Virus record (IMG/VR): IMGVR_UViG_3300042892_003815
Location: 1 to 64,000 of that record
DNA length: 64,000 nt
Source: a virus
Reading direction: 5' to 3' (one strand)
Below the pieces are notes generated by a model. That model was not told the DNA's origin and searched no databases. It saw only the letters and a program-made list of their open reading frames with translations. Shown here piece by piece: positions 29,723-51,493 of the stretch; position 1 is the first letter of the stretch; the number at the start of each line of letters is the position of its first letter. The translations under genes were made by a program, and so were the position numbers.

Positions 29723-29932
29723 ATGAAAGAAATAAACTTAGAAATAAAGTCTGTTAGTGTAGAAGCAAAATCAAGAAAAATTAAATGTGAATATTCCAGA
29801 GAGTTAGTAACGGATCTAAATTCTTTTCACAATATTGATGTAGAGTCTGAATTAGAGAGATTATTGGGTAGTGAGATTAGAAAACAAAATAGAAAGAAAA
29901 AAATTGAAAATTTAACGAAACATACTGCTTAA
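29723..29932 (+). CDS. 69-aa stand-alone fragment resembling gp23-type capsid protein spine region
   Basis: VEAKSRKIKCEYSRELVTDLNSFHNIDVESELERLLGSEI matches the gp23 EAKSR-x-LKA-x-YS-x-ELAQDL-x-x-x-H-x-x-D-x-x-x-EL-x-x-IL-x-x-EI motif as recalled. Confidence 0.7.
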   Translation: MKEINLEIKSVSVEAKSRKIKCEYSRELVTDLNSFHNIDVESELERLLGSEIRKQNRKKKIENLTKHTA

Positions 29933-29948
29933 TTTTGATATAAAAACT

Positions 29949-31181
29949 ATGTATATTGAAAATGTAATAATCACTAAAGAAAGCTCTGAAAGCGTATCAA
30001 AACGCCTAGATGATAAATTATTTTCCCTTCAATTTTTACCAGAATGTTTATATGGAATATCAACTATAAAAACATTAGAATTTAATGGAGTTAAACTTAA
30101 AACAAACTATCTAATTGATATAGTACATAATTTAATATTAAAGTATTATTTTAAAAAAGAAAATCGATTCGCATTAAATGCCACTATTCTAAAAGATAAG
30201 TATGGCTATCTTTATAACTATTATATAAACTACTTGGTATCAAATCGTATTTTAATACTTAAAACAAACTATCAGAATGGAGTTACATCAAGAATATATG
30301 CATTAGATGAAAATATATTTACAGATAAAATAAAAAGATATAAAAATCTTGATAAAGTACTTTTAAAAAAGTATAAAAATAAATTTGTTGATATGATCCA
30401 TATCAATAATACTTCTAAAGTAAGTTTAATTGAACCTACTATAAAGGAAAAACTAGTATCTGATTTATTTAGTGTTAAAATTGAATATGATAGAGCAATT
30501 TTCTTCTTGGATTCCTTAAAACATCAAGATATAGACATTTACAATAGAAACATATACTCTGTTGATTGTATCAATGATAAACACATCTTCTACCACTTCG
30601 ATGATTATGGTAGAATGCATACAAACTATACAATACTTAAATCATTTATTAGAAAAAACTGTTTACTTATAGATGGTGAGGAAACTTGTGAGATTGATAT
30701 ACCAAATAGTCAACCACTTTTCCTAACTAAAATAATTGATATGGATTCCAGTTTAGTTGATGAAAAAGAATTTCAATTATTCAAAGAACTTACTACATCT
30801 GGAACATACTATCAATATGTTATGAGTCAATTAGGTGAGGATAATAAGAAAAAAGTTAAAGAGATGACATATAAAGTTCTTTTTGGTAGAAATATTACAT
30901 CAAGTAGGGTAGATAAGAATTTTAAAAAGTTATTCCCAACAATTCATCAGTTTATTAGAAATTATAAAAAGGAACATGGTGATTATAAAATTCTTGCTTA
31001 TGATTTACAAAAAGCAGAATCAGATTTAATTTTCAATACTGTTATAAAGAAAGTAATGCAATTTTATCCAGAAATAAAGCTAATAACAATACATGATAGT
31101 ATCGTTGTGCCTAGAAAATATAAAGAGGAAGTAAATCAAATTTTCGAAATAGAACTCAAAAAAGAGTTTAACATAAACTAA
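29949..31181 (+). CDS. family-A polymerase palm-like protein with N-terminal winged-helix-like region
   Basis: GRMHT, EIDIPNSQP (motif A), KEMTYKVLFG (motif B), LQKAES, TIHDSI (motif C). Confidence 0.65.
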   Translation: MYIENVIITKESSESVSKRLDDKLFSLQFLPECLYGISTIKTLEFNGVKLKTNYLIDIVHNLILKYYFKKENRFALNATILKDKYGYLYNYYINYLVSNRILILKTNYQNGVTSRIYALDENIFTDKIKRYKNLDKVLLKKYKNKFVDMIHINNTSKVSLIEPTIKEKLVSDLFSVKIEYDRAIFFLDSLKHQDIDIYNRNIYSVDCINDKHIFYHFDDYGRMHTNYTILKSFIRKNCLLIDGEETCEIDIPNSQPLFLTKIIDMDSSLVDEKEFQLFKELTTSGTYYQYVMSQLGEDNKKKVKEMTYKVLFGRNITSSRVDKNFKKLFPTIHQFIRNYKKEHGDYKILAYDLQKAESDLIFNTVIKKVMQFYPEIKLITIHDSIVVPRKYKEEVNQIFEIELKKEFNIN

Positions 31182-31197
31182 AAATAATATATAAGAA

Positions 31198-31356
31198 ATG
31201 AAAACATTTTATTTAAGAACAAAGAAATCAAAAGAGGTTTTAATAAAAACATCTTGTTATAGCATTGAAGAAGCAATTGAATACTTTTCAAAAGTTAAAC
31301 AATTACCAAAAAAAGATTTAGTAAGTATATTCATGATTACTGAGTCAGAAAAATAA
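31198..31356 (+). CDS. 52-aa small protein (not in ORF track)
   Basis: MKTFYLRTKKSKEVLIKTSCYSIEEAIEYFSKVKQLPKKDLVSIFMITESEK; TAATATATAA 3 nt upstream. Confidence 0.6.
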   Translation: MKTFYLRTKKSKEVLIKTSCYSIEEAIEYFSKVKQLPKKDLVSIFMITESEK

Positions 31357-31366
31357 TATATACTTT

Positions 31367-31906
31367 GTGAACTTAGAAAACCCAAATATATCTTATCTTA
31401 TATTATCATCTGATGGATTGGATGATATGACATCTGTTCTTTATGCTAAGGATTATCAGATACTTCCTTTACAAACATATTATAAAGAAGAGTTTGATAA
31501 TTCTGCTATGGGTTATAGTGATGTCGATAATGATACATTAAGAAAAGATGTTATATTCTTATTAAATCACTTTCACCAAGAATCTGCAATTATTAAATAT
31601 AAAGGTGAGAAAACGCCAAGAAGAATTTACCGAACAGGTGCTGAGAAACTATTAGAAATCAATATGTTTAATACTGATTCTGAAAATGTTTCATATTTGT
31701 ATAGAGGACTTTCTTTTTCATTCGTTGAATCAAAAAGATATTGGATTCCTAAATCTAAAGAAGATTTTAAAGTGGGTATGATAGTTGAATATTTAAACAA
31801 TAATCAGTGGTCTGAAAAAGTTGTTGAAAATCCTAATGATGAATGGGAGCGAATGTATAAACTACTTTTAAAATATGATAAAGTTAGAGTACAATCTATA
31901 AATTAA
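31367..31906 (+). CDS. hypothetical protein (GTG start)
   Basis: 179-aa ORF; TAATATATAC 3 nt upstream; ends at terminator. Confidence 0.7.
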   Translation: MNLENPNISYLILSSDGLDDMTSVLYAKDYQILPLQTYYKEEFDNSAMGYSDVDNDTLRKDVIFLLNHFHQESAIIKYKGEKTPRRIYRTGAEKLLEINMFNTDSENVSYLYRGLSFSFVESKRYWIPKSKEDFKVGMIVEYLNNNQWSEKVVENPNDEWERMYKLLLKYDKVRVQSIN

Positions 31907-31931
31907 AAAACCTCTCAATTGAGAGGTTTTT
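31905..31931. terminator. bidirectional terminator
   Basis: AAAAAACCTCTC-AATT-GAGAGGTTTTT. Confidence 0.85.
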
Positions 31932-31932
31932 C

Positions 31933-32709
31933 TTATTTTATATGAAACCACATAATTCTATTTTTTAGACTCGGTGTTTCTTTCATAAAGTATTTATCTT
32001 CATTAAGTGATTTTATTACAAATAGTCCATCTTCACTACCGCCATTTATATCCGCTCTTAAAATAATAAATTTATCTTTTGAGATCACTTTAGATTCGAT
32101 TAAAGTATAATTTGCAACATTTACAAGTTGTTTATCTCCATAGAAATATTTTGATATAGTTTCTGGATGAACAATTAAAGTAGTTCCTGGACCACGTCTA
32201 TTTGTCGTCGCAATATAGTTGCCACAGCTAACTAATTTGGATATAATTCTTCTTTGATTGTACTCATAGTTCTCTTTATCTGTTTTACTAGTATCATTAG
32301 TTAAAGTTAAATCAAATGAAGACATTCCATTATTTAAAACTGGCTGTCCTTGTGTAAAGTTTTCCATATAGTTTATTAGATCTGTATGTAAGTCTTCGTA
32401 TGATGTAAAGTGTGTTGCTTGTATACTCATAGAAAATATCTTTAGACCCATAGTTGGTATTGTACTTTCATCAATTTTTGGTAAATCAACTCTTTTATTC
32501 CAAGCAGATTCCTCTTTTTCACCAGTCATAATATCAATTGCGAGTTCACGATTTTGTGATTTTGCTTTTAATTGATCTTCAAGTGTATTTTCTTCTACAT
32601 AATCTAGGTAAGAAATTTGTGCATTATTACCACTATGTTGTTTTTCAGAGAAATTACATAAGTACGTTATCTCTTTTTTTATTTCATCTTCGGTTTTAAA
32701 ATGTATCAT
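31933..32709 (-). CDS. protein containing a fragment of the major capsid fold
   Basis: QRRIISKLVSCGNYIATTNRRGPGTTLI aligns with in-window capsid QRKLITKIAHASNYIATEGRVGPAQYLI. Confidence 0.65.
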   Translation of the reverse strand: MIHFKTEDEIKKEITYLCNFSEKQHSGNNAQISYLDYVEENTLEDQLKAKSQNRELAIDIMTGEKEESAWNKRVDLPKIDESTIPTMGLKIFSMSIQATHFTSYEDLHTDLINYMENFTQGQPVLNNGMSSFDLTLTNDTSKTDKENYEYNQRRIISKLVSCGNYIATTNRRGPGTTLIVHPETISKYFYGDKQLVNVANYTLIESKVISKDKFIILRADINGGSEDGLFVIKSLNEDKYFMKETPSLKNRIMWFHIK

Positions 32710-33424
32710 AGAAATTACTCATACCAATTTTTTGTGAACTCATATTTATAGATCTAACTAAATCTTCTTTGGATATTGTAGTCATTTGTTGAAGAATTTT
32801 TTCATTTACTGGATTACTTTCAATTTTATTATGAAAGAAATGATATGCACTTATTGGTAATTCATTACTTGTTAAAAAGTTTTTAACTTTATGTGATAAA
32901 AACTCCTCCGCACCACCTAATCCAATAAATGATTCATTCCAACCACCTATTTTCTGTATGGCGGATTTTCTAAAAATAGAAATTCCACTACACAAAGAAG
33001 TTGTTTTACCAGGTCTATTAATTCTTAATATGTCTTCATATTGAGTATTTCCCTCATTAGGATAAAGATCAATAATAGAATTATGTGGACTAACCATTTC
33101 ATATTTATCAAGTAATTGAATCGCTTCAATAAGTTTGTTTGGGTCTATTATAATGTCAGCATCACCAAATATTGCAATATTTGTATTTGAAGATTTTAAT
33201 CCAACATTATAACCCCAAGATTTGTTATATGGTTTATCAGTTTTGATAAAGATATGTTTGCATTTTAAAGATAGGTGTGATATTTTAGAGTGTTTATCTT
33301 GTTCGACAAGAATAACTTCTACGTTTGCAAACCCATTTATCCAATCTAGAACTCGTCTAAGATTATTTAGTCTATCTGGGCTGTGTCTATATCCAATTAT
33401 ATAGGTAAAAGAATGTGTATTCAT
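32696..33424 (-). CDS. GT-A fold glycosyltransferase (GT2/GT7-like)
   Basis: YNKSWGYNVG, FGDAD (DxD), GGWNESFIGLGG. Confidence 0.75.
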   Translation of the reverse strand: MNTHSFTYIIGYRHSPDRLNNLRRVLDWINGFANVEVILVEQDKHSKISHLSLKCKHIFIKTDKPYNKSWGYNVGLKSSNTNIAIFGDADIIIDPNKLIEAIQLLDKYEMVSPHNSIIDLYPNEGNTQYEDILRINRPGKTTSLCSGISIFRKSAIQKIGGWNESFIGLGGAEEFLSHKVKNFLTSNELPISAYHFFHNKIESNPVNEKILQQMTTISKEDLVRSINMSSQKIGMSNFYDTF

Positions 33425-33465
33425 TACTAATTTATTATTTTTCTAATTATATTGTATTTTATCAA

Positions 33466-33618
33466 TTAGTTTAGTGGGTTTATATAACCATTTTGTTGTG
33501 TTATAAGTAGCATTTGAGTAGTTGATAGTTGATTGTGGTTCCAACCCATTTTTTTACAATATTCTACTAAAAATTTTTCTCTTAAAAAAGAAATTTCTTG
33601 TTTTGTTTTAGTTTTCAT
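33466..33618 (-). CDS. 50-aa small protein (not in ORF track)
   Basis: MKTKTKQEISFLREKFLVEYCKKMGWNHNQLSTTQMLLITQQNGYINPLN; late box at 33636-33645. Confidence 0.55.
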   Translation of the reverse strand: MKTKTKQEISFLREKFLVEYCKKMGWNHNQLSTTQMLLITQQNGYINPLN

Positions 33619-33628
33619 AACTTTGATT

Positions 33629-33658
33629 TTTGTTTTATATATAATTTTACTATCTTTG
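33629..33658 (+). promoter_or_regulatory. Bacteroidota sigma-A type (early) promoter
   Basis: TTTG-N18-TATCTTTG, 4 nt before the ATG of the 2H gene. Confidence 0.7.
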
Positions 33659-33662
33659 TCGT

Positions 33663-34244
33663 ATGGTATTTAAAGTAAGAGGTATATTAGATTTCAGTCC
33701 AGAGGACAAAACTAAGAAGCATGTTAGTCAAGCTTCTTGGAAGAGAGTTGCTATGATCCGTACTAATTGTGAATTGGATAGATATTATGCTTGGTTTTTA
33801 AAGAAAAGATTTAGTCTTGAATTAAATAGTACCTTGAGAGGAACTCACGTTACTTTTATCAATGATAAAATGGATACTAAAACATTTGAACAGTTTGCAC
33901 AAATCTTTAATGGTAAAGAAATAGACTTTTATGTTGAAACTGAGCCAAGAAGTAATGGTGAGCACTGGTGGTTAAGAGTTCACTGCCCAGAAGCAGAAAG
34001 TATTAGAGAAGTTATGGGTTTATCAAGAGAACCATTCTACGGAATGCACCTAACATTAGGATATGCTCTAGTTAAATATCCAGAGGCTACTGCACTAAAT
34101 GATAGTCCACTTGCAATTAAAGTAAGAAAAGATTATATAGAACATTCTAAGTATATTTTAGAGTGTTGTAAAAGAAACGAATTGATTTCTAATGAACCAA
34201 GAAAACCATTAAGTGAATTAAAAGTAGTAGAATGGAAGAAATAG
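33663..34244 (+). CDS. 2H phosphoesterase superfamily protein
   Basis: Two H-x-T motifs, GTHVTFI and GMHLTLG, about 65 aa apart. Confidence 0.75.
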   Translation: MVFKVRGILDFSPEDKTKKHVSQASWKRVAMIRTNCELDRYYAWFLKKRFSLELNSTLRGTHVTFINDKMDTKTFEQFAQIFNGKEIDFYVETEPRSNGEHWWLRVHCPEAESIREVMGLSREPFYGMHLTLGYALVKYPEATALNDSPLAIKVRKDYIEHSKYILECCKRNELISNEPRKPLSELKVVEWKK

Positions 34245-34693
34245 TAAATTATATTGAAAATGCATATGAGTTTGAAATTGTACCTTGTTCAATTCCTGCT
34301 AGTGATTTTCAATACATAAAAAGAAACTTTTATATTTGGATAATGAATAGTGTGAGTAAAAAACTATTCTACTTTTTAAGAGATAAAGTTTCACCTATAA
34401 AGTTTTTAGAAGAAAGACCTGATGGTACTATTTGGTTGAGAAAAAGAATGTCTGATAATAAGTTATGTGAAATTGAAGTTAAGACAATTTATCTATATGA
34501 CCATAGTAATGAGTATTTAATATCATTACATACTAAAGATGAATTATATCATCAGTGGAATTTACAAATTGATAAATTAAATACATCTTTGATTGATAAG
34601 TATATTTATCAAGTTCCAGAATTAAAAGAGTTTAATAGAAATAAAAAACTTGAAAATATATTAAATAGTCACGAGATAATAGAGTTTAAATAA
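34232..34693 (+). CDS. hypothetical protein with C-terminal RNKKLENIL motif
   Basis: 153-aa ORF overlapping the 2H gene end. Confidence 0.65.
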   Translation: MEEIVNYIENAYEFEIVPCSIPASDFQYIKRNFYIWIMNSVSKKLFYFLRDKVSPIKFLEERPDGTIWLRKRMSDNKLCEIEVKTIYLYDHSNEYLISLHTKDELYHQWNLQIDKLNTSLIDKYIYQVPELKEFNRNKKLENILNSHEIIEFK

Positions 34694-34718
34694 AAAAGAG
34701 GACTTAGTCCTCTTTTTT
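34692..34718. terminator. bidirectional terminator
   Basis: AAAAAAGAGGAC-TTA-GTCCTCTTTTTT. Confidence 0.85.
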
Positions 34719-35694
34719 ATGTTCTTGATTGATACCACATTTGTTTTGGTTCTTCTTTAGGTTCTTCCAATTGTTTTGGTTCTTCTTTAGGTTCTTCCTT
34801 TTTAGTAACTTCTCTTGGTATATCTGCAATATTATAACGAAACCATTTATTATTTGGATTTCTAAGATCTGCAGAACCTCTAAGTGTTTCAACATCATCA
34901 TACAAATGATTTACTTTTATACCATATTTTAATGCGTGTATACATCTTTGAAAGTTTCTAGGATCACCTAATAGTGAAAATATCTTCCAAATTTCTCCTT
35001 CAATTTGATCATCTATTAGACTTGGTAGTAATTTCTTAAACCTAAATGCACTATTTCTATCTGAGAATATACCATAATGATACATATTTACTGCTTCTCT
35101 ACCACCCATCCACATAGGTTTTGGATTAGATTGTGGTATTGACAGACTAATTGCCAAATCGGCAGTATCATCATAAAGTTCTTGTAGTGTGTATTGTTTT
35201 GGTGCATCTTCTTCATCCCATTCATCTGGATTATTCCAGCTTTCTAATCCATCATCCCAGTTAGACATATTTATTTTAAACGAAAATAAAGGAACATCCC
35301 ATCCTGGTAAAGAATTACCCATTTTTGATTTTGTTTCTTCTAATGGATCAAAATAAAATTGTATCGTGAAGTATAATTCTCTTTGTGCATCAGTCCAAAG
35401 ATCAAGCATTTCTTCTACTGATATATCTTCATATCTTGTATTGATATCATTTAATCCAGGTGTTTCTTTTCTATTTAAAATAAATTTTGCCTTAGGTTTT
35501 GTAAATTTAACCTTTCTAGATATATCACCATAGTTTTTAACGAGTTCTATATTATAAACACCCCATTCTTTTTCGGAACCATAATCTTTTAACTTTCTAC
35601 CTTTCTCTACTTTATGAGGCATATTCATAAATCTTTGTCCAGCATCTCTATAGATTCTCGGTGTTAGTTCTTCATAAGTTTTAATCCATTTCAT
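34717..35694 (-). CDS. capsid-targeting-motif protein with C-terminal EEPK repeats
   Basis: Starts MKWIKTYEEL; TAATATATAG 3 nt upstream. Confidence 0.7.
   Translation of the reverse strand: MKWIKTYEELTPRIYRDAGQRFMNMPHKVEKGRKLKDYGSEKEWGVYNIELVKNYGDISRKVKFTKPKAKFILNRKETPGLNDINTRYEDISVEEMLDLWTDAQRELYFTIQFYFDPLEETKSKMGNSLPGWDVPLFSFKINMSNWDDGLESWNNPDEWDEEDAPKQYTLQELYDDTADLAISLSIPQSNPKPMWMGGREAVNMYHYGIFSDRNSAFRFKKLLPSLIDDQIEGEIWKIFSLLGDPRNFQRCIHALKYGIKVNHLYDDVETLRGSADLRNPNNKWFRYNIADIPREVTKKEEPKEEPKQLEEPKEEPKQMWYQSRT
34741..34798. repeat. 30-bp tandem duplication encoding EEPKEEPKQ
   Basis: TTGTTTTGGTTCTTCTTTAGGTTCTTCC at 34741 and 34771. Confidence 0.9.
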
Positions 35695-35745
35695 AAACTA
35701 TATATTATTTTTTAAACTCACATTTATATTCATCATATAATAAAT

Positions 35746-35895: not shown

Positions 35896-35917
35896 CTAGA
35901 AAATAACAGATTATTAA

Positions 35918-36418: not shown

Positions 36419-36928
36419 ATGGATACAGACTCAATAGAATATTTATTATTATCTTACTTTAATGAAGTAATTTGGGTGGATAAAAATCCAGTCGAGTTTA
36501 CTATTAGTGAAACATTTAAAGAAAATGGAAATATAAAAACCTCAAATAAAGTAGAGGTTTATCAACTACAAGATTTGTTAGTAACTTCTTTAGAAGATAC
36601 TAACACTTTTTTATTTGAAATAATGTCTGATTGTCAGACAATAGAATTAGATTTTTATCCTAAAAATATATTATCTAAGTTATTCAATTTAAGGTCAAAT
36701 AAACAACTTAAAAAAGAATTAGATGGTCTTACATCAAATAACTGGATAATTACTTCTAATGAGATATACGATACTTATATCAAAGATTTAGGATATAATG
36801 TTTACTTATCAGACGAGTTTGAAAATCAAATTGTAATTGGTGAAAAATCATCTAAATTGATATTAAATAAAAATCTAAAAGAATTCTATTTAGATAAGTC
36901 TATGATTAAAGTAATAAAGTTAAAATAA
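36419..36928 (+). CDS. hypothetical protein, possible degenerate capsid A-domain fragment
   Basis: NNWIITSNEI...GYNVYLSDEFENQIVIGEK vs capsid AQYLITNGGL...GDISIYVDPYMRYNDNRIVLGRK. Confidence 0.55.
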   Translation: MDTDSIEYLLLSYFNEVIWVDKNPVEFTISETFKENGNIKTSNKVEVYQLQDLLVTSLEDTNTFLFEIMSDCQTIELDFYPKNILSKLFNLRSNKQLKKELDGLTSNNWIITSNEIYDTYIKDLGYNVYLSDEFENQIVIGEKSSKLILNKNLKEFYLDKSMIKVIKLK

Positions 36929-36957: not shown

Positions 36958-37467
36958 TTATTCTATTCCTAATTGCTTTAGTTTAAGATCTCTTTTAACA
37001 GAATCATCAACTATAAGTTGAACTTGATTTTTCTCAACCCATTTATCATTCATAAATTGAATAATACCTGGTCTTCTTGTAGCATCTCTTCCAATTTGAT
37101 CTGTTGATGTGAAATCAACTGCTTTAACCTTAACTCTAGTCTCAGTCACTTCTAGAACTTCTAACTCATAAGTTACTTTAAAAGATTCTGGTTTCATTTT
37201 GTTACCATCTTTGTCAGTATCAGTATAAGTAAGTCCATAGTCTGGATAAATAACTTTATGACCTGGTTCGATTGCAATTAAATCTTTCTTAAAAGCATCA
37301 GCTTTATCTTTTTCTCTTTTAATCTTATCTTTTTCCTTTGAGACTTTATCTTTTTCGGCTCTTATCTCTTCGCATTTAGAGTAAAGTATAATATTGCCTA
37401 TTAGAGAACCTAAAAGACATAGTGATACTATAAATACTGCAGTCTGCAACATTAAAATCGCGGTCAT
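36958..37467 (-). CDS. membrane-anchored protein with C-terminal RDLKLKQLG motif
   Basis: N-terminal hydrophobic helix, short coiled coil. Confidence 0.65.
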   Translation of the reverse strand: MTAILMLQTAVFIVSLCLLGSLIGNIILYSKCEEIRAEKDKVSKEKDKIKREKDKADAFKKDLIAIEPGHKVIYPDYGLTYTDTDKDGNKMKPESFKVTYELEVLEVTETRVKVKAVDFTSTDQIGRDATRRPGIIQFMNDKWVEKNQVQLIVDDSVKRDLKLKQLGIE

Positions 37468-41356: not shown

Positions 41357-41974
41357 ATGAAACACTTGAGAATATTTGATAATTTTCGAGATAAACAAAC
41401 ATTGATAATTGTCGATGTTCAAAAGTCTTTTAGAAAGTTTTTTACTGAAATGTACTTACATGAATTAAAAAAATATTGTAAGAAGTTTGAATCTGTTTAT
41501 CAAATTTGGGATAATCACGTCGATGGTAAAAATGTGGATAAAGATTATCTATATGATGAGAATCCAGATATTCCAGTTCATAAAGACTTATATCGTTTCC
41601 CTAATCAAAAGGATTTAATAGAGAAAAGATACAACTATGATGTAGATGTAGATTTTTATAAAAATATTCTATCTAAAGATGTTTATGAAGATCTAAAGGA
41701 AAAAGAATCTAATAAAGAATTAAAAAGAGGTGATACATTCAATACTAAGGAAGGCACATTTATAATTTATATTGGCAACAATCACAAATGGTATCATTTA
41801 CCAAAGAAATTACAGGAATTATTCACTGAACTAAAAGGACAAGAAGTTGTTATGGTTGGTGGTTCTGACTCAGAGTGTTATTTAGATGTTGAAACTGCTG
41901 CTAAATCATTTGGTGTTAAGATAAAAAGAGATTTTAAATATATCTACTCGGCTAATCATTGTCCAATAAAATAA
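41357..41974 (+). CDS. isochorismatase/nicotinamidase-like cysteine hydrolase with capsid-targeting-like N-terminus
   Basis: LIIVDVQKSF (catalytic Asp), IEKRYNY (Lys), VMVGGSDSECYLDV (Cys). Confidence 0.75.
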   Translation: MKHLRIFDNFRDKQTLIIVDVQKSFRKFFTEMYLHELKKYCKKFESVYQIWDNHVDGKNVDKDYLYDENPDIPVHKDLYRFPNQKDLIEKRYNYDVDVDFYKNILSKDVYEDLKEKESNKELKRGDTFNTKEGTFIIYIGNNHKWYHLPKKLQELFTELKGQEVVMVGGSDSECYLDVETAAKSFGVKIKRDFKYIYSANHCPIK

Positions 41975-41982
41975 TAATAAAT

Positions 41983-42429
41983 ATGAGATACTTAAAAACT
42001 TTTGAGAATTTTGATTTTGACAGAATAGACTCTGATGAGACTGACTATTTATATGTAGAAACTTCACAGATACCTAATTCTGGTAGAGGTTTATTCACTG
42101 CAATTGATATTGAAAAAGATGAAGTTATTTCAGTTTTTAAAGGGGAAATACTTTCTGATAAAGAAATCAAATCAAGAACTGAATCAGGAGATGATGATTA
42201 CTTTATGAATTTACCAAATGGTGATATATTAGATTGTAAAAAAACTGAATGTTTTGCAAAATATGCTAATGATGCAGGAGGTTCTAATACGAGTTTTAAA
42301 AATAATTGCATTATCTCAATGGAAGGTGATGATGTTGTTCTTGTTGCAACAAGAGATATAGAATCTGGTGAGGAAATATTTGTTGAATATGGTGAAAACT
42401 ATTGGAGTAATAATTCTTACAGACTTTAA
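41983..42429 (+). CDS. SET-domain lysine methyltransferase with capsid-targeting-like N-terminus
   Basis: GRGLFTAIDI-x-K-x-E, AKYAND, VATRDIESGEEIFVEYG..YW; start moved to MRYLKTFENF. Confidence 0.85.
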   Translation: MRYLKTFENFDFDRIDSDETDYLYVETSQIPNSGRGLFTAIDIEKDEVISVFKGEILSDKEIKSRTESGDDDYFMNLPNGDILDCKKTECFAKYANDAGGSNTSFKNNCIISMEGDDVVLVATRDIESGEEIFVEYGENYWSNNSYRL

Positions 42430-44440: not shown

Positions 44441-44457
44441 TAATATATACTTTTATG
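44441..44457 (+). promoter_or_regulatory. late promoter abutting start codon (TAATATATAC-TTTT-ATG)
   Basis: Identical 17-mer also at 27491-27507 on minus strand. Confidence 0.7.
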
Positions 44458-45419: not shown

Positions 45420-46703
45420 ATGAAGAATCTTAAACTTGAATTGTTTAACTTCAAAAAGGATCTTTCTCTTGATCAAGAAGAAATATCTACGATTGTAGAA
45501 GGACATATGAATGCTTGTAATCAACATTCAGAGAAAACTATAATTACTTCTCTTAATGAAAGATTAAAACCTTATACTTATGATAAAGGTGTAAAGATGT
45601 TATTAGAAGGTCTTAATGATGATATGGCTACATTTGAATTATTATATGAGTTGAAAAATTTATATGGTGTTCTTAATACAAGAAATCAAGGAGAACTTTA
45701 CAGACAACCTATAAATGTTTTATTACAAACTATTAATCTTGAGTCAGATCAAGATAGAATGTCAAAAATTCTTAATGAATTGGCAGTTTATGACTGGGTT
45801 CCAGAAATTAAAGTATTCGTACACAATTTAACAAAATCTCCAGAAAAAAGATCTAATCTTCTAAGTGGTGGTAATGGTGAATCAATTTTTACTGTTGTAG
45901 AACAAGTTGAAGAAGGACATGTTGCTTTGGTTAGAGATTCTTGGTTTTTATTAACAGAGAATTCAATCGAAAAAACTTTATTAGAAAATCACATTAAAGA
46001 TGAAACTGCATTAAGAAGTTTAAGAACTTTAGAAACAGCTATGAAATATTCAACTGTTACTGAAAGTAGAATTAACTTCAGAATTTCAGAATATTTAACA
46101 ATTGGTTTGGCAGTTGGTAAAAAAGGTGGTTTATTCATCAATGATGATGAGTTAAATGAAGAAACTACATTAGAAAGCTTATTTAACTCTCCAATTATTC
46201 CTATCGTTAACAAAAACTTTTATCCAGTTTTATTAGAAACTTCTAAAAACTTAGATAAATTTGTTGAATTAGATGTTGTAAAAAGAGTTAATAACTTAGT
46301 AAATCCTTATTTAGAAGTATTTGCTTTCAATTACAAAAACAATACATTTGTTTACAGATGTGATGAAAGATATGGTAACTCATTCTTTAAATATGAATCT
46401 GCTTTAGAATTAGTAAATGAAGTAAGAAATGAATTAAACTATGATTTAACTTATTTCTACGAAAACAAACTAAGTAAAGAATTAATTGTTAAAAGAAAAC
46501 TTGAAGATAAAGAAAGAGAAATCTCTCTTAAATTAGAAGATGTTGAATTTAATATAGATAAAGTTAAAGGTTCTTTAAAAATGATTGGTGAATCAGAGGT
46601 TTTAACAACTGCATTATCTAATTTAGAAAAAAGACAAACTAATCTTATTACTGAATTACAGGCAGTTAAAGAATTACAATACAAAGAAAGAATTAAAGGA
46701 TAA
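45420..46703 (+). CDS. conserved late-gene protein, probably virion structural
   Basis: 427-aa ORF, strong late box, coiled-coil C-terminus, optimised codons like capsid genes. Confidence 0.65.
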   Translation: MKNLKLELFNFKKDLSLDQEEISTIVEGHMNACNQHSEKTIITSLNERLKPYTYDKGVKMLLEGLNDDMATFELLYELKNLYGVLNTRNQGELYRQPINVLLQTINLESDQDRMSKILNELAVYDWVPEIKVFVHNLTKSPEKRSNLLSGGNGESIFTVVEQVEEGHVALVRDSWFLLTENSIEKTLLENHIKDETALRSLRTLETAMKYSTVTESRINFRISEYLTIGLAVGKKGGLFINDDELNEETTLESLFNSPIIPIVNKNFYPVLLETSKNLDKFVELDVVKRVNNLVNPYLEVFAFNYKNNTFVYRCDERYGNSFFKYESALELVNEVRNELNYDLTYFYENKLSKELIVKRKLEDKEREISLKLEDVEFNIDKVKGSLKMIGESEVLTTALSNLEKRQTNLITELQAVKELQYKERIKG

Positions 46704-46717
46704 TTATTACTAAATAT

Positions 46718-46757
46718 AAAAAAAAATACTCAAACTTTGTTTGAGTATTTTTTTTTT
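46718..46757. terminator. terminator hairpin
   Basis: AAAAAAAATACTCAAA-CTTTG-TTTGAGTATTTTTTTT. Confidence 0.85.
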
Positions 46758-46784
46758 AAACTTTTTCTAATGAATATATATAAC
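46758..46784 (+). promoter_or_regulatory. middle-type promoter of sigma gene
   Basis: AAAC-N17-TATAAC. Confidence 0.55.
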
Positions 46785-46827
46785 ATGAATGAATAGCATT
46801 ACAGAGTTCAACTCTGAAAAAAAATAA

Positions 46828-47202
46828 ATGCTATATATGTACTTAAATAATAAAGAATTATACATCGAGATTATTGTGTCAAAGGCACAAGGTCGACTAA
46901 CAAGAAATGCGGAGAAAATGCTAGAGTTACTAGCAAAAAAGACAATAAGAAAAATGAGATACTGGTCAAATGATGATAAGTTAGATTGCTACCAAAGTGG
47001 TCTACTAGATATGTTTCAAAACTGGTTCAACTTTAATGAAGACAAATCAATCAATGCATTTGCGTATTTTACCGAAATATTTAAAAGAGGTTTGGCTAAA
47101 GGATGGAATGACCTTTATAAAAAGAAAGGAGATAACGAACATTTGATTAAACTTATTTCAATAAACGGTGCTAATGATGGAAATGGATTACACTCAATAT
47201 AA
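46828..47202 (+). CDS. gp55: late transcription sigma factor (T4 gp55-like, short)
   Basis: YLNNKELY, NFNEDKSINAFAYFTEI match gp55 YVNNKEL and NF-x-x-x-KS-x-NPFAYFTQI. Confidence 0.8.
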   Translation: MLYMYLNNKELYIEIIVSKAQGRLTRNAEKMLELLAKKTIRKMRYWSNDDKLDCYQSGLLDMFQNWFNFNEDKSINAFAYFTEIFKRGLAKGWNDLYKKKGDNEHLIKLISINGANDGNGLHSI

Positions 47203-47317
47203 GATACAAACATTTGATATAGTGACTGATCCAGGATTTGGATCAGTCAGTATAAAAAATTTATCTACTAAGAATTATATAAGAATGAAAATAATAAGAA
47301 ACTTATTTATTTTTTAG
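47183..47317 (+). CDS. 44-aa peptide containing prohead-protease C-terminal motif (not in ORF track)
   Basis: MDYTQYKIQTFDIVTDPGFGSVSIKNLSTKNYIRMKIIRNLFIF; 9/12 identity to TYDIVADPGFAS of 53963..56182. Confidence 0.6.
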   Translation: MDYTQYKIQTFDIVTDPGFGSVSIKNLSTKNYIRMKIIRNLFIF

Positions 47318-47343
47318 TATAGAATACTTTTAAACAATTTTTT

Positions 47344-47637
47344 ATGAATAAAGTTTATCTTCAAATCTGGGAAGAGTCAATTAGTAATGAGGGAATAAGA
47401 CCTGATGGTTGTTCACTACATATCGATCTAGAGTCAAATCAAAAATATTTAAAATCAATCTATGAATTTAGAGAGAATTTAAAAATACCAAATGATTATG
47501 ATTCTGCCGTTGGAGAACCAATAGAGGTTTTAGTAAATGATTCAGTTTACGTCTTAGTAAAGGTGGATAAAACAATTAGATTATTACAAAATGAGTTTAA
47601 TAATCTAATACAATTAAAAGATATATTAGTGCAATGA
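47344..47637 (+). CDS. hypothetical protein
   Basis: 97-aa ORF. Confidence 0.65.
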   Translation: MNKVYLQIWEESISNEGIRPDGCSLHIDLESNQKYLKSIYEFRENLKIPNDYDSAVGEPIEVLVNDSVYVLVKVDKTIRLLQNEFNNLIQLKDILVQ

Positions 47638-47969
47638 TTATAGTTTACGACTTGCTACCAATAATATTTATTTTAAATATTATTTATTTTATAAAAAATA
47701 GAGATTATCTACAAAAAAGTTATTCTGAAAAAGATACATCGATAATTAGAGGTAGCGATTTAGTATATTATTATGTAAACCTAATTTATTATCTCTTTAT
47801 ATTTTTTGGATTACTAATAGATAATACTTATTGGTTATTACTTTTGGCTTATTTTATTAAATTTCCAATTTATCATATAAATAAAAGATTTTATAGAATC
47901 TACTCCTATTTGTATCCTTATATAAGTATAGTATTTTTATTATATCTACTATATTCCAAACTTTTTTAA
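47634..47969 (+). CDS. small multi-pass membrane protein
   Basis: Three to four hydrophobic segments; ATGA overlap. Confidence 0.65.
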   Translation: MIIVYDLLPIIFILNIIYFIKNRDYLQKSYSEKDTSIIRGSDLVYYYVNLIYYLFIFFGLLIDNTYWLLLLAYFIKFPIYHINKRFYRIYSYLYPYISIVFLLYLLYSKLF

Positions 47970-48476
47970 GTGTTGTTCAGTTATGATAATAAAATCATAG
48001 CCTTTCTTATCACACCAAGATATCATAGTCTCCCATTTATTCTTATTCTTATAAGCCATTTTAAGGTCATACTCGAAGTTCTTTAACTTCTTTAAACCAT
48101 TTGTAGGAACATTCATTTTACCTTCTTTTAAATCAATTACCATTTGATATTCTTTCATTGGTTTTACTTCAACTACAACTCTTTTTCTACTACCATCTGC
48201 AAGTTGCATTTCATAATAAAAGTCTGGATAGTAACAGTGTTCTTTAACTTTCATATCACCATTATCAAAATGAGTCATTTGGTAAGGTATTTTAAGACAC
48301 TCTGCACCCCACATTAAAATATTTGAGTTATTATCTAACCAAGTCATTATTCTTTTCTCCCAAGAGCTTCTAAAGTAAACACCACCATTGGTATTTAGTT
48401 TCATTACTTTATCCTTATTTGTAGGGATGAAATTTCCCTGATTATAGTTCTTATTATTTGGTTTTGAATTTATCAT
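47949..48476 (-). CDS. gp4: head completion nuclease (T4 gp4-like, TnsA-type PD-(D/E)XK)
   Basis: FRSSWE, W-x-x-E, YYPDF, VEVKP, KW...W. Confidence 0.8.
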   Translation of the reverse strand: MINSKPNNKNYNQGNFIPTNKDKVMKLNTNGGVYFRSSWEKRIMTWLDNNSNILMWGAECLKIPYQMTHFDNGDMKVKEHCYYPDFYYEMQLADGSRKRVVVEVKPMKEYQMVIDLKEGKMNVPTNGLKKLKNFEYDLKMAYKNKNKWETMISWCDKKGYDFIIITEQHLKKFGI

Positions 48477-48506
48477 ATTTTATATATAAATAAAAATAAT
48501 TCTCTT

Positions 48507-49211
48507 ATGGCGGTTGTTGATTCTTTATTAGAACGTATTAAACTAGCATTACTTTATAATGGAAATGGTATAGTTGAGAATTTTAAAAATAATTCTTTAT
48601 TTTTTTATAATAAATATAATAAATCAGGTAAAGATGTTGAATCTATAAATATTAAAGATATTTACCCTGGTGGTTTTTACTTTTTTCATTATAAAGATGA
48701 TTCTAATTGGATGAAATATGCACCAGTATTTGTTGTTGATTTTAAAAAATTTGAAGATAAAGTAATTTTATTTGCAGTGAATTTTAATTTTATTCCAATG
48801 GAAATAAGAGCTCAGATATTTGATAAGTATATACAACCAAATGATTTTGAAAATAATAATTTCTTAAAAGTAAATTATGAAGGAATGTATAAAGAACTAT
48901 TAAATTCTGGATTTGAATACGCTTTGATGGAATTTAATGCAATACAATTAGTTCTAGTTCATAGAATACATTTAGAATTACTACCTAGATTTCTTTATTC
49001 ACAACATCCTATAAACAAATATGACCCACAAAAACTAGTACAAATTTGGCAAGCAAAACTTTCTAGTAGAAATGAAAGACACAAAGAAGTAATCTCATCT
49101 ATTTTAAGTGATTTTTATGACGTAAATAATGAAATATCGGATAAATATAATGTTATGAGAGATCATATAAAACGTCTACAGACCAGTCTGAATAAGTACG
49201 GGAAGAGGTAA
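48507..49211 (+). CDS. gp2: DNA end protector (T4 gp2-like)
   Basis: PGGFYFFHYKD, YAPVFV, FAVNFNFIP..R; divergent from gp4-like and upstream of portal. Confidence 0.65.
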   Translation: MAVVDSLLERIKLALLYNGNGIVENFKNNSLFFYNKYNKSGKDVESINIKDIYPGGFYFFHYKDDSNWMKYAPVFVVDFKKFEDKVILFAVNFNFIPMEIRAQIFDKYIQPNDFENNNFLKVNYEGMYKELLNSGFEYALMEFNAIQLVLVHRIHLELLPRFLYSQHPINKYDPQKLVQIWQAKLSSRNERHKEVISSILSDFYDVNNEISDKYNVMRDHIKRLQTSLNKYGKR

Positions 49212-49263
49212 AATAGGAAAACTCAAAATTTAATATATACATAAATTTTAAAATTTAATACAT

Positions 49264-51033
49264 ATGGCATCTTATAATAACTTCAGTCAAGAAAATCAAA
49301 ATAACGTTGGATCAAACTTTGCGATGGTAAATTCATCTGGAGTTGAGAATAAAGGTTTATTTAGTAGGATTTTGAGAAACTTATCATCATACGGAATGAA
49401 CTTCGATGATATGATTGTTAGAAATCAAGTAGGTATTGGTATCAATGAAGATCCATATGCGGCTAAAGGAAATTCGATGTACGACTTCTTCTCCCAGCGA
49501 GCCGTTGCATCAGTATTAAACAGAAAATCAATACCTTATCTAGACAAAGCTTACGCAGACAAGAGAAGAATTTTAAGAGAGTATTCAGTTAAAGACGAGA
49601 TTAGAGACTTTATAAGCACGATTGCAGACGAATGTATAGTATATAATGATGAAAAGGACTTCTGTTCTATTACGGCTCTTCCAACGTCTTATTCACAGGA
49701 AGTACAAGATAAGTACCAAGAGTATTTTGAAAAAATTTATAATAGGTTTGGATTTGCGGATAATATAACAGCTTGGAACATGATGAAAGACTTCTTGATT
49801 GATGGTTATTTGGCACTTGAGATTATTTACGATGATAAAAAGAAGAATATTATTGGATTTAATAGAATTAGACCAGAGACAGTAGTTCCTGCATATGAGC
49901 CGAGTATAGGACACTTATGGATTCAGTTTCCTGAAGATCCACAATTAAGAAGAATATTTCTAGATTCACAATTAGTTTATATTTCATATTCAACTCAAAA
50001 TGAATTTTCTGAGACATCGTATATAGAAGGTTTAATTAAGCCTTATAATCAATTAAAGATTTTACAACAAACAAGAATAATGTTTAACATTATCAATGCT
50101 ACTGTTTATCAAAAGTTTACTATTCCTATTAAAGGTATGTCTAGACAAAGAGCGGAGGAACAAATAGGTCAATTAATACATGATTATTCAGAAGAAGTAG
50201 AATGGGATGAATCATTAGGCACAATGACTATTAATGGTTCTAAACACTTACCTTACAACAAACAAATTTGGTTCCCTGAAGGGGATGGTGGTACACCTAA
50301 TATGGAATTAGTTTCTCCAACTGGACATAACTTAAATGATGACTCAATGTTGGATTGGTTCTTCAAAGCTTTAAAAAGATCTTCTAAGATTCCAATGTCA
50401 AGATTTGAAAGTGATAATGGTGGTGGTAATTTAGTTACTGATGCTGCTGAGATGACAAGAGATGAGATTAAATTTCATAACTTTATTAGTAGGTTAAGAG
50501 CAAATTTCAAAGAATTGATTGTTAAACCATTGAGACTACAAATGTTGATAGAGTTTCCTGAGTTTATAGAGGATGAATTCTTTACAAATGCGGTGGATAT
50601 TACTTTCTTCTCAAATCAAGTATTTGAAGAATGGAAGAAATTAAATAATTTAGAAAAGAAAGCAGGTATTGTTGGTACAATGCTTGGTGTGATGAATGGT
50701 GAAAAACCTTACTTTCATATTGAGTGGATTATGGATAATATCTTTAAACTTAGTCCTGAGGAAAAGGCGGAAAATCAAAAATACTGGGATAAAGACGCTA
50801 TGAACGCAGCCGCTGGTGCAACTGGTGAGCCTGGAATGCCATCGGAAGGTGGTGGAGGTGGCGTTGGAATGCCAGAAGGTGGTGCTCCAGAAGGTGGTGG
50901 TCAAATAGCTCCAGAAGGTGGTGGTCAATCTGCTCCAGAAGGTGGTGGTCAATCTGCTCCACAGACTACACCACAAGCTGCACCTGAAGCACCTGCTCCT
51001 GAAGCACCGGGTGGTGGAGAGTTTGAATTCTAA
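49264..51033 (+). CDS. gp20: portal protein (T4 gp20-like)
   Basis: EIRDFISTIADECIV, FLIDG, SYIEGLIKPYNQLK, WFPEGDGG, FFKALKRSSKIPMSRF, TRDEIKFHNFISRLR. Confidence 0.93.
   Translation: MASYNNFSQENQNNVGSNFAMVNSSGVENKGLFSRILRNLSSYGMNFDDMIVRNQVGIGINEDPYAAKGNSMYDFFSQRAVASVLNRKSIPYLDKAYADKRRILREYSVKDEIRDFISTIADECIVYNDEKDFCSITALPTSYSQEVQDKYQEYFEKIYNRFGFADNITAWNMMKDFLIDGYLALEIIYDDKKKNIIGFNRIRPETVVPAYEPSIGHLWIQFPEDPQLRRIFLDSQLVYISYSTQNEFSETSYIEGLIKPYNQLKILQQTRIMFNIINATVYQKFTIPIKGMSRQRAEEQIGQLIHDYSEEVEWDESLGTMTINGSKHLPYNKQIWFPEGDGGTPNMELVSPTGHNLNDDSMLDWFFKALKRSSKIPMSRFESDNGGGNLVTDAAEMTRDEIKFHNFISRLRANFKELIVKPLRLQMLIEFPEFIEDEFFTNAVDITFFSNQVFEEWKKLNNLEKKAGIVGTMLGVMNGEKPYFHIEWIMDNIFKLSPEEKAENQKYWDKDAMNAAAGATGEPGMPSEGGGGGVGMPEGGAPEGGGQIAPEGGGQSAPEGGGQSAPQTTPQAAPEAPAPEAPGGGEFEF
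50884..50960 (+). repeat. 24-bp tandem repeats encoding APEGGGQ(I/S)
   Basis: GCTCCAGAAGGTGGTGGTCAA x3 in portal C-terminal tail. Confidence 0.85.
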
Positions 51034-51039
51034 TATAAA

Positions 51040-51071
51040 TAAAAAATCCTTTCAATTTGAAAGGATTTTTT
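51040..51071. terminator. bidirectional terminator
   Basis: AAAAAATCCTTTCA-ATT-TGAAAGGATTTTTT. Confidence 0.85.
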
Positions 51072-51073
51072 AT

Positions 51074-51493
51074 TTATGCTACATTTTTTGGTGTCTCTAT
51101 TATAAAGTTTAAATTTTTATCATATATAAATTGACTTACTTTAACTTCCATACCTACCTGTATCATTGTTTTGACTATCTTACCACATTCTGTATCAAGT
51201 ACTTTAGATTTTAAAGTAAGTTTATCAATCTTATTATTATTTATTATAAATGTCATTCCGTTTACAGAGCAACATACTTTTTGTAAGGATATCTGATGAC
51301 TATGCTGATCATCGAGTGTAATATATTTCTGAATATCATCAATATCAAACTGTATTTTTTTACTACCTTCTAAAAGATAGTTTAATTTTATCTCACGATA
51401 AATGGATTTCCACGTTGGATAACTAGAAAGTGCTAAATTATAATCATCAAATTCTAAATCACTACCTAATATGACATCAAATAGATAGTCCAT
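51074..51493 (-). CDS. catalytically dead prohead-protease-like protein
   Basis: LDDQHSHQISLQKV...KSKVLDTECGKIVKTMIQVGMEVKVSQF aligns with protease FDHPDVFDTSLSRA...IKLLSTYWGKEAKSLVDDGCPVFVSSR. Confidence 0.65.
   Translation of the reverse strand: MDYLFDVILGSDLEFDDYNLALSSYPTWKSIYREIKLNYLLEGSKKIQFDIDDIQKYITLDDQHSHQISLQKVCCSVNGMTFIINNNKIDKLTLKSKVLDTECGKIVKTMIQVGMEVKVSQFIYDKNLNFIIETPKNVA

What the first reader, a model, noticed from the sequence alone, without database searches (positions are those of the whole stretch)
29723..51493. Dispersed family of non-catalytic head-protein fragments (capsid and prohead protease mimics)
Seen: four to five small genes far from the head operon encode pieces of head proteins: capsid spine region (29723), capsid A-domain (31933, probably 36419), protease core with catalytic residues lost (51074) and protease C-terminal strand (47183). 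Four of them carry the same R-x-x-K-L/I-x-x-L type peptide, exact or near. Established: several anti-phage sensors are triggered by virion proteins (CapRel by major capsid protein, T4 Lit by a gp23 peptide, type I CBASS linked to prohead protease). Inference: these are decoys that saturate or block head-sensing immunity, or dominant-negative poisons of co-infecting T4-like phages. I know of no description of such a coordinated fragment set.
Basis: partly seen in the sequence, partly recalled or inferred. Interest (0 to 1): 0.85.

Follow-up and report, generated by a model that had tools for sequence, protein, structure and literature searches.

The report
Mini-genes copied from phage head proteins
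A huge (about 0.6 Mb class) T4-like phage keeps, under selection, small genes made from copied pieces or stripped-down copies of its capsid, protease and other core proteins, several ending in one shared short tail; what they do is unknown, but such a set has not, to my knowledge, been described.

Summary
Four of the five genes hold up.

- **f1 (29723-29932):** a conserved 69-aa stand-alone gene. It encodes only the gp23 beta-strand plus spine helix (Pfam Gp23 E 4e-15). It is 42% identical to T4 gp23 and has no BLAST match to the phage's own capsid protein.
- **f2 (31933-32709):** not a fragment. It is a complete, compact HK97-fold capsid paralogue (pLDDT 93.5; Z 14.8 to T4 gp23).
- **f4 (51074-51493):** has the prohead-protease fold (Z 7.1 to T4 gp21). 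It lacks the catalytic His and Ser, and it lies next to the portal gene, not far from the head genes.
- **f5 (47183-47317):** a conserved 44-aa ORF that copies the protease's 'YDIVADPGF' strand (hhalign 94%).
- **f3:** no support.

All five are intact in many relatives, with dN/dS of 0.2-0.55, so they are selected but evolve fast.

The shared peptide is real and far more widespread than reported. It is a C-terminal tag, R..K[LI]..[LI], on 8 genes of this contig and 113 of 948 genes in a complete relative. In relatives, tagged mini-ORFs also carry pieces of scaffold, portal, tail sheath and possibly DNA polymerase.

The decoy/poison idea is neither supported nor excluded. Other first-stage readers noted f1 and f2 on this and another genome.

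The parts
29684..29718 (+). Terminator-like hairpin of the upstream gene (29684-29709), followed by TAATATAG (29711-29718), a one-mismatch copy of the upstream motif TAATATATA. It ends 4 nt before the f1 ATG.
   Evidence: Sequence read. The motif is 22-fold enriched upstream of genes, in 62 of 199 genes, including the portal and protease genes.
29723..29932 (+). f1: a 69-aa stand-alone gene encoding the gp23 P-domain strand plus spine helix, followed by the tail NRKKKIENLTKHTA.
   Evidence: Pfam Gp23 E 4.4e-15. 42% identity to T4 gp23 249-298. 72 clusters of 63-81 aa, all flagged PF07068. Syntenic in 5 loci and, weakly, in LR745206. dN/dS 0.24.
31933..32709 (-). f2: a 258-aa compact but complete HK97-fold paralogue of the major capsid protein. 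It has no insertion domain and no propeptide.
   Evidence: The family has 112 clusters at 50% identity, all about 230-280 aa. dN/dS 0.32-0.45.
32696..33424 (-). GT2-type glycosyltransferase gene. Its end overlaps the f2 start by 14 nt, and the pairing is conserved in relatives.
   Evidence: Pfam/PHROG hits. Synteny in L012-L017 and in the two complete relatives LR745206 and LR756502.
36419..36928 (+). f3: a conserved 169-aa protein of unknown fold. The capsid relationship is not supported.
   Evidence: hhalign to the MCP and to the f2 family gives 0.2-1.2% probability.
36958..37467 (-). 169-aa protein with an N-terminal hydrophobic helix that ends in the tag ...KRDLKLKQLGIE.
   Evidence: The ortholog in LR745206 ends ...KRDAKLRKLGIE.
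46828..47202 (+). gp55-like late sigma factor gene (124 aa). Its 3' end is overlapped by f5.
   Evidence: PHROG 234 E 2.5e-7. dN/dS 0.03.
47183..47317 (+). f5: a 44-aa ORF with a copy of the protease strand (TFDIVTDPGFGS) and the tail IRMKIIRNLFIF. Orthologs have IRKKKIENLL or RRKEKIQNIF.
   Evidence: Broken or absent in a few loci. dN/dS 0.45.
49264..51033 (+). T4-type portal protein gene.
   Evidence: Pfam Portal_T4 E 3.7e-60.
51074..51493 (-). f4: a 139-aa paralogue with the prohead-protease fold, without the catalytic His and Ser. Its most conserved stretch is WK..(K/Y)REIKLN.LLE. Its start overlaps the stop of the RNase II/R gene.
   Evidence: The ortholog in the complete relative LR745206 matches the protease at residues 74-125, E 0.007.
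53963..56182 (+). Parent gene: prohead protease (N-terminal about 170 aa, with FDHP and VSSR motifs) fused to a repeat-rich, very acidic scaffold region.
   Evidence: Peptidase_S77 weak hit, E 1.7e-4. Sequence.
56271..57992 (+). Parent gene: gp23-type major capsid protein (573 aa).
   Evidence: PF07068 E 2.1e-30. 73-74% identity (tblastn; 76% by HMMER) to the 635-642 kb uncultured phages LR745206 and LR756502.

Best explanation
These are selected accessory genes made by copying virion-morphogenesis genes.

**Two are whole-domain paralogues.**
- f2 is a minimal HK97-fold shell protein.
- f4 is a catalytically dead protein with the prohead-protease fold.

**Two are mini-proteins.**
- f1 consists of the gp23 strand plus spine helix, followed by a short basic amphipathic C-terminal tail of the form RK.KI.N[IL][FL].
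- f5 consists of the protease 'DIV.DPGF' strand, followed by the same kind of tail.

**Most likely role (inferred).** They act inside the phage's own head assembly.
- f2 would be a minor or vertex shell subunit, like T4 gp24.
- f4 would be a non-catalytic core component.
- In the mini-proteins, the copied segment would dock by mimicry onto the partner surface of the parent protein. The basic tail would tether them to a common acidic partner such as the scaffold. T4 offers a parallel: the basic C-terminus of gp68 beside the acidic gp67.

**Shown:** homology, fold, loss of catalytic residues, conservation, purifying selection, and enrichment of the tag.

**Inferred:** every functional step.
For: - **Homology and fold:**
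- **Conservation as intact ORFs in many relatives:**
- **dN/dS below 1:**
- **f4 position:** it always lies beside the portal gene in the head gene region.
- **More fragment ORFs in complete relatives:** pieces of the MCP N-terminus, MCP C-terminus and scaffold repeats, several carrying the same tail.
- **A possible acidic partner:** the scaffold half of the protease gene is extremely acidic.
- **T4 parallel:** gp68 ends in a basic tail and gp67 in an acidic one.
- **T4 precedent:** T4 itself holds a capsid paralogue (gp24) and the small ORFs alt.-1 and alt.-2, annotated as an old partial duplication of a head-packaged protein gene.
Against: - f1 resembles canonical T4 and cyanophage gp23 (40-42% identity) and not the phage's own MCP. 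That is odd for a partner of its own capsid.
- All four genes evolve 3-10 times faster in dN/dS than neighbouring structural genes.
- f1, f2 and f5 lie outside the head operon. f5 is coupled to a sigma-factor gene, and f4 to an RNase II/R gene.
- In relatives, tagged mini-ORFs may also copy DNA polymerase motif A (weak, E 0.002). That has no place in head assembly.
- The tag sits on about 100 unrelated small proteins, too many for the tag to be read simply as a marker of head components.
- There are no expression or virion-proteome data.
Confidence: 0.35

Rival explanations
1. **Immune decoys.** The copied segments mimic conserved patches of core phage proteins. They would occupy host sensors of virion proteins without activating them. 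The tail could serve delivery, for example packaging and injection, or turnover.
For: - The genes evolve fast but under selection.
- The copied pieces are the most conserved segments of the core proteins. In relatives they include the MCP region equivalent to T4 Gol (PMC3014915), portal, sheath and possibly DNA polymerase.
- These are the protein classes reported as triggers of bacterial sensors (bioRxiv 10.64898/2026.01.04.697583; PMC9712102).
- A phage protein that counteracts a sensor of a structural protein is known: DSAD1 against DSR2 (PMC11087589).
Against: - No sensor, host or binding data exist.
- Pieces of 20-50 residues are unlikely to present the folded surfaces that known sensors read (the Avs preprint reports recognition of conserved core folds).
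- f1 is not the Gol region.
- f2 and f4 are whole domains, which could equally be structural.
Confidence: 0.15
2. **Interference with competing phages.** The mini-proteins would act as dominant-negative caps. They would insert into the assembly interfaces of capsid, protease, sheath or portal subunits of co-infecting T4-like or sister phages, while the producer's own proteins have diverged enough to be immune.
For: - f1 is closer to canonical gp23 than to its own MCP.
- The other fragments are 37-67% identical to the clade's MCP, that is, similar but not identical.
- The copied pieces are interface elements: the N-arm, the P-domain strands and the sheath N-terminal strand (structural roles from general knowledge of HK97-fold capsids and contractile sheaths).
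Against: - There is no evidence of toxicity or of co-infection.
- A single strand or helix rarely competes with an intramolecular fold element.
- A polymerase motif fragment does not fit.
Confidence: 0.15
3. **The tail is a degron or address tag of a large class of small, mostly early, proteins.** It might be read, for example, by the phage-encoded Clp system. Under this view the head-derived members are only the recognisable minority of a gene-birth process that fuses duplicated DNA to the tag.
For: - 113 of 948 genes in LR745206 carry the tag near the C-terminus, against 1.8 expected.
- The carriers are ORFans in tandem arrays with no Pfam or PHROG family.
- The relative encodes a ClpC/ClpB-like AAA+ protein.
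- Another reader noted ClpP and tmRNA in this genome.
- The gene after that ClpP carries the tag.
- The f4 family ends in -AA or -VA, like ssrA tags.
Against: - The distance from the tag to the C-terminus varies from 0 to 10 residues.
- No binding test could be run.
- This does not explain why the copied pieces themselves are conserved (f1 motif, f5 motif).
Confidence: 0.15
4. **Non-functional debris.** The ORFs would be left over from partial duplications, or from gene conversion driven by homing endonucleases.
For: - T4 has such remnants, alt.-1 and alt.-2.
- In LR756502 a T5orf172-like endonuclease-type ORF lies between a sheath-fragment ORF and a portal-fragment ORF (the domain was recognised by eye, not tested).
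- f5 is broken in some loci.
Against: - Intact ORFs of constant length occur in 72 clusters (f1), 67 clusters at 90% identity and 112 representative clusters at 50% identity (f2), and 41 distinct sequences (f4).
- dN/dS is 0.24-0.55.
- No endonuclease family was found by Pfam next to this contig's own fragment cluster.
Confidence: 0.05

Closest known systems
T4 gp24 (capsid vertex protein)
   Same: It is a paralogue of the gp23-type major capsid protein with the HK97 fold, encoded in the same genome. The f2 model aligns to gp24 (1yue) at Z 12.8 and to gp23 at Z 12.8-14.8.
   Different: f2 is 258 aa against 427, and lacks the insertion domain and the propeptide. It lies 23 kb from the MCP gene (17 kb from the portal gene), behind a glycosyltransferase gene. 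It evolves far faster than the MCP (29-33% against 73-76% identity to LR745206). It shows no sequence-level match to gp24. Relatives hold two such compact paralogues.
T4 gp21 / Peptidase S77 prohead protease and herpesvirus assemblin
   Same: f4 shares the fold (Z 7.1 to 5jbl; Z 3.3-4.1 to the herpesvirus enzymes) and matches the phage's own protease by profile. It lies in the head gene region.
   Different: The catalytic His and Ser columns are not conserved and no scaffold is fused to it. It is therefore a pseudo-enzyme, not a member of the enzyme family.
T4 alt.-1 / alt.-2
   Same: They are small ORFs that the T4 record annotates as an old duplication of the first part of a gene for a head-packaged protein.
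   Different: They are a single case beside their parent gene and carry no shared tail. Here the copies are dispersed, come from several parent genes, are conserved across a clade and are tagged.
T4 gp67 / gp68 minor prohead core proteins
   Same: They are small proteins encoded beside the portal gene. gp68 (141 aa) ends in a basic tail and gp67 in an acidic one. f4 (139 aa) lies beside the portal gene.
   Different: There is no sequence similarity between the f4 family and gp68. The fold of gp68 was not compared.
C-terminal targeting peptides (encapsulin cargo-loading peptides; the coat-binding C-terminal helix of the P22 scaffold)
   Same: They are short C-terminal peptides that tether diverse proteins to the inside of an HK97-fold shell (general knowledge). 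Encapsulins match the f2 model at Z 10-12.
   Different: The motif sequence differs, no binding has been shown, and the number of carriers (about 12% of genes) is far larger.
DSAD1-type anti-defence proteins
   Same: It is a phage protein that counteracts a sensor (DSR2) of a phage structural protein (PMC11087589).
   Different: That paper does not describe DSAD1 as a copy of the structural protein it competes with. No sensor is known here.

Membership tests
Gp23 major capsid protein (PF07068) | Pfam match above the gathering score | tested here: met
   f1 scores 56.4 bits against a cut-off of 24.4, but covers only profile positions 131-185 of 376. f2 has no Pfam match at E <= 1.
Gp23 major capsid protein (PF07068) | Complete HK97 fold (N-arm, E-loop, spine helix, P and A domains) | tested here: met
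   Met for f2 only. Model residues 1-258 align to gp23 100-519, gp24 29-419 and HK97 gp5. f1 (69 aa) covers one strand and one helix, so it is a fragment and not a member.
T4 gp24-type vertex protein | Forms the pentameric vertices of the capsid | not testable with these tools
   This needs virion proteomics or cryo-EM.
Peptidase S77 (T4 gp21 prohead protease) | Assemblin-like fold | tested here: met
   f4 gives Z 7.1, rmsd 3.1, 107 residues aligned to 5jbl_B; the next unrelated fold scores 4.8. hhalign to the own protease gives 81%, E 1.2e-5. Support is moderate, not strong.
Peptidase S77 (T4 gp21 prohead protease) | Catalytic His (..HP motif) and Ser (..SSR motif) conserved | tested here: not met
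   In the hhalign register, the His aligns to a variable, gapped column. The Ser pair aligns to a variable column and a mostly Gln column. The eight invariant f4 residues are W, R, L, L, K, F, G, F.
Encapsulin shell protein | HK97-fold shell that loads cargo through C-terminal peptides | tested here: inconclusive
   The fold matches encapsulins at Z 10-12, below T4 gp23 and gp24. At sequence level f2 derives from the gp23-type MCP. Cargo binding was not tested.
Anti-defence decoy of a virion-protein sensor | Binds or blocks a host sensor; rescues a sensitive phage | not testable with these tools
T4 gp55 late sigma factor (f5 as its detached C-terminal, clamp-binding part) | Similarity of f5 to the C-terminal half of gp55-family proteins | tested here: inconclusive
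   f5 has no PHROG or Pfam hit. The sigma gene matches only PHROG 234 positions 10-104 of 181, so a missing C-terminal part is possible. The resemblance of the tail ..NLFNF to clamp-binding tails rests on memory only.

The most novel reading that the evidence does not exclude
This huge-phage clade may run a modular 'mimic peptide' system. New small genes would arise by fusing a copied, highly conserved segment of a core phage protein to a constant C-terminal tag. The source proteins include capsid, scaffold, protease, portal, sheath and possibly polymerase. The tag would route the product to a common machine, such as capsid packaging and injection, or a phage Clp protease. The products would act by molecular mimicry against host sensors of the core phage proteome or against competing phages. 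That would be a new class of counter-defence or interference genes, marked by a tag on about 12% of the proteome.
Probability: 0.2. Interest if true: 0.9.

Novelty: new variant of a known kind. Interest (0 to 1): 0.7.

Why it matters
Capsid paralogues and pseudo-enzymes are known. I found no description of a conserved, dispersed set of mini-genes copied from single interface segments of several virion proteins, tied together by one C-terminal tail (paper searches).

If they are head components, they bear on how 0.6-Mb-class capsids are built and sized. If they are mimics aimed at host sensors or rival phages, they would be a new counter-defence principle and a ready-made map of which epitopes matter.

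The tag alone marks over 100 otherwise anonymous proteins in a complete genome. That gives a testable handle on the 'dark' proteome of huge phages.

Tried and rejected
- **f3 as a capsid A-domain piece:** BLASTP, hhalign against the MCP and the f2 family, and the ESM Atlas gave nothing significant. The only match is a 10-column stretch (E 0.3).
- **f4 as a relative of T4 gp68, or a direct sequence relative of T4 gp21:** hhalign was negative.
- **f2 against T4 gp24 by sequence:** negative. Profiles of f2 and f4 against PDB sequences found only chance hits.
- **f2 self-association:** Complex prediction with three copies returned 'no answer'. This is no evidence either way.
- **Timing from promoters:** the enriched upstream motif TAATATATA precedes 62 of 199 genes of all kinds, so it cannot separate early from late genes.
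- **Alternative genetic code as the cause of 'fragments':** rejected. ORFs under table 11 cover 95% of the contig, and the MCP, portal and protease genes are intact.
- **Homing-endonuclease neighbourhood as a general cause:** Pfam found no nuclease family beside this contig's own fragment cluster.
- **The tag as a T4-type protease site (L/I-x-E):** the register does not fit most instances.
- **The tag as a DNA-level repeat:** the codons vary while the residues stay the same, though in a 28% GC genome this is weak evidence.

Full report
**Setting**

The window is the first 64 kb of a 190,950-bp IMG/VR virus record with about 28% GC, which CheckV rates one third complete. Its gp23-type major capsid protein (MCP, 56271-57992) is 73-74% identical to those of the 635-642 kb uncultured phages LR745206 and LR756502, and about 28-31% identical to those of Lak phages. 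This is therefore a T4-like huge phage.

The head genes in the window are:
- the portal gene (49264-51033);
- a protease fused to a repeat-rich, acidic scaffold (53963-56182);
- the MCP gene.

**f1 (29723-29932)**

- The 69-residue product matches Pfam Gp23 at E 4.4e-15 over profile positions 131-185.
- It matches T4 gp23 residues 249-298 at 42% identity. That region is the long P-domain strand plus the spine helix.
- It has no BLAST match to the phage's own MCP. Its best matches in phage genomes are cyanophage and T4-like gp23 at about 40% identity.
- It follows a terminator-like hairpin and a one-mismatch copy of the common upstream motif.
- It is a stand-alone ORF of 63-81 residues in 72 sequence clusters, all flagged PF07068.
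- It is syntenic in five related contigs, and weakly in LR745206.
- dN/dS is about 0.24, against 0.06-0.08 for its neighbours.
- It is not the Gol region sensed by Lit, which lies in the first quarter of gp23 (PMC3014915).

**f2 (31933-32709, minus strand)**

- BLASTP to the own MCP gives E 7e-7.
- An exhaustive profile search found 112 clusters at 50% identity, all about 230-280 residues, and no full-length MCPs.
- The 77-sequence profile matches MCP 417-522 at 97.6% probability, E 2.6e-12.
- The AF2 model has pLDDT 93.5 and pTM 0.84.
- Foldseek finds 109 PDB matches at E <= 0.001; those listed are HK97-fold shell proteins.
- VIA gives Z 14.8 to T4 gp23, 12.8 to gp24, 11.6 to HK97 gp5 and 10-12 to encapsulins, spanning model residues 1-258. 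BFVD agrees.

So f2 is a whole, minimal HK97-fold protein.

Its start overlaps the end of a GT2 glycosyltransferase gene, and this pairing is kept in all relatives examined. It evolves fast: 29-33% identity to LR745206, where the MCP keeps 73-76%, with dN/dS 0.32-0.45.

**f4 (51074-51493, minus strand)**

- It lies directly beside the portal gene in nearly all of the 80 portal-centred loci that extend past the portal gene. Its identity ranges from 27 to 86%, while the portal's ranges from 72 to 97%.
- The AF2 model from 29 diverse sequences has pLDDT 85.7.
- The top Foldseek hit is the T4 gp21 protease (probability 0.84, E 0.09).
- VIA gives Z 7.1, rmsd 3.1 Å, 107 residues aligned. The next fold scores 4.8, and many herpesvirus proteases score 3.3-4.1.
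- hhalign to the phage's own protease gives 81%, E 1.2e-5, with f4 55-122 aligned to protease 61-129.
- The LR745206 ortholog matches protease 74-125 directly.
- In that register the catalytic His of the ..DHP motif and the Ser of ..VSSR fall on non-conserved columns. No Ser, His or Asp is invariant in the family.

'Protease core with catalytic residues lost' is therefore supported at moderate strength. 'Far from the head operon' is wrong.

**f5 (47183-47317)**

- This 44-residue ORF overlaps the end of the gp55-like sigma gene.
- Orthologs of 41-57 residues exist in many loci, and a few are broken.
- The family keeps T(F/Y)D(I/L)V..P(G/A/S)F..A and a tail (I/R)R(K/R).KI..(L/I)(L/F).
- The family profile matches protease 143-163 at 94%, E 1.3e-7.
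- T4 gp21 has the same D.V..P...A element after its catalytic Ser.
- dN/dS is 0.45, against 0.03 for the sigma gene.

**f3 (36419-36928)**

It is conserved, but no link to the capsid reached significance.

**The shared peptide**

- On the 191-kb contig, R..K[LI]..L occurs 13 times in 199 genes against 2.3 ± 1.5 in shuffles.
- Eight occurrences lie in the last 22 residues against 0.14 expected, and none of 500 shuffles reached that.
- In f4 the motif is internal and is the most conserved stretch of the family.
- In the complete relative LR745206, 113 of 948 genes carry R..K[LI]..[LI] near the C-terminus against 1.8 expected.
- The carriers are mostly ORFans of 40-240 residues in tandem arrays, with no Pfam or PHROG family.
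- A basic flavour, RK.KI.[NK][IL]F, marks about ten tiny ORFs.

**More fragments**

On this contig, outside the window:
- 146617-146886 copies MCP 498-566 (E 1e-6), with the motif inserted.
- 119264-119725 copies MCP 45-87 behind a leader like the T4 capsid-targeting sequence.

LR745206 and LR756502 each hold six further small ORFs with MCP pieces:
- the propeptide plus the Gol-equivalent region;
- the Gly/Ser-rich N-terminus;
- a second compact paralogue that ends in the tag;
- the C-terminal strands plus the tag.

They also hold:
- an 83-residue ORF of scaffold repeats plus the tag (E 1e-36);
- a portal piece (E 1.6e-11);
- an ORF starting with the sheath-like FVSPGVY..E.D.S motif followed by the tag (the sheath assignment is from memory);
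- weakly, a DNA polymerase B motif-A piece.

**Reading**

The genes are real, selected and derived from core phage genes. Their function is not shown.

I rank a role inside the phage's own head assembly first, at about 0.35. The reasons are that f2 and f4 are whole domains, f4 sits in the head region, T4 has analogous minor components, and a basic tail could dock on the very acidic scaffold.

The rivals are decoys, competitor poisons, and a degron or address tag of a large small-protein class. Each keeps 0.15. The reasons are that f1 looks like foreign gp23, that all four genes evolve fast, and that the copied pieces are conserved interface or signature segments of many core proteins. Neutral debris is largely excluded by the conservation.

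Noticed in passing
LR745206 whole record (loci L117-L148); this contig at 89741-90199, 121009-121683, 146532-146669, 158589-159072, 160108-160467 (outside the window): A C-terminal tag, R(D/K).K(I/L)..(I/L)(L/G/F), often ending ...LGI, marks 113 of 948 genes in a complete relative (1.8 expected) and 8 of 199 here. Most carriers are ORFan small proteins in tandem arrays.
   Followed up: partly
window 53963-56182: The prohead protease is fused to a scaffold that has about twelve 14-residue repeats (YSEY.AENLDKNI type) and a long acidic EEHEG-repeat region.
   Followed up: no
window-wide, e.g. 49231-49239, 31185-31193, 44441-44449: The upstream motif TAATATATA is 22-fold enriched before gene starts (62 of 199 genes). 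In several genes it ends only 4-5 nt before the ATG, which suggests very short or absent leaders.
   Followed up: partly
window 51074-51493 and orthologs (alignment A2): The f4 family nearly always ends in -AA or -VA, like ssrA degradation tags. A relative encodes a ClpC/ClpB-like AAA+ protein (LR745206 423224-425329), and another reader reports ClpP and tmRNA in this genome.
   Followed up: partly
L104 (LR756502 314294-317392): A cluster of two leader-bearing genes, an MCP N-terminal fragment ORF, a sheath-motif fragment ORF, an ORF with a T5orf172/GIY-YIG-like sequence (judged by eye), and a portal-fragment ORF.
   Followed up: partly
window 47949-48476 (-): A TnsA-like endonuclease N-terminal domain protein (Pfam E 8.8e-13), conserved beside the portal region, ends in ...LKKFGI, which resembles the tag ending.
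   Followed up: no
window 41959-42429, 58027-58458, 51493-53376: A SET-domain protein, a stand-alone NFACT-R domain protein directly after the MCP gene, and an RNase II/R homologue between the portal and protease genes.
   Followed up: no
window 59874-60455: A 193-aa protein ending in an acidic ...DDESPF tail, like the C-terminal tail of bacterial SSB. No Pfam hit.
   Followed up: no
contig 146194-146511 and 119264-119725 (outside the window): N-terminal leaders MKIKRFFES and MKYLKLYQKFFED resemble the T4 capsid-targeting sequence, as other first-stage readers noted for 16-22 proteins per window.
   Followed up: no
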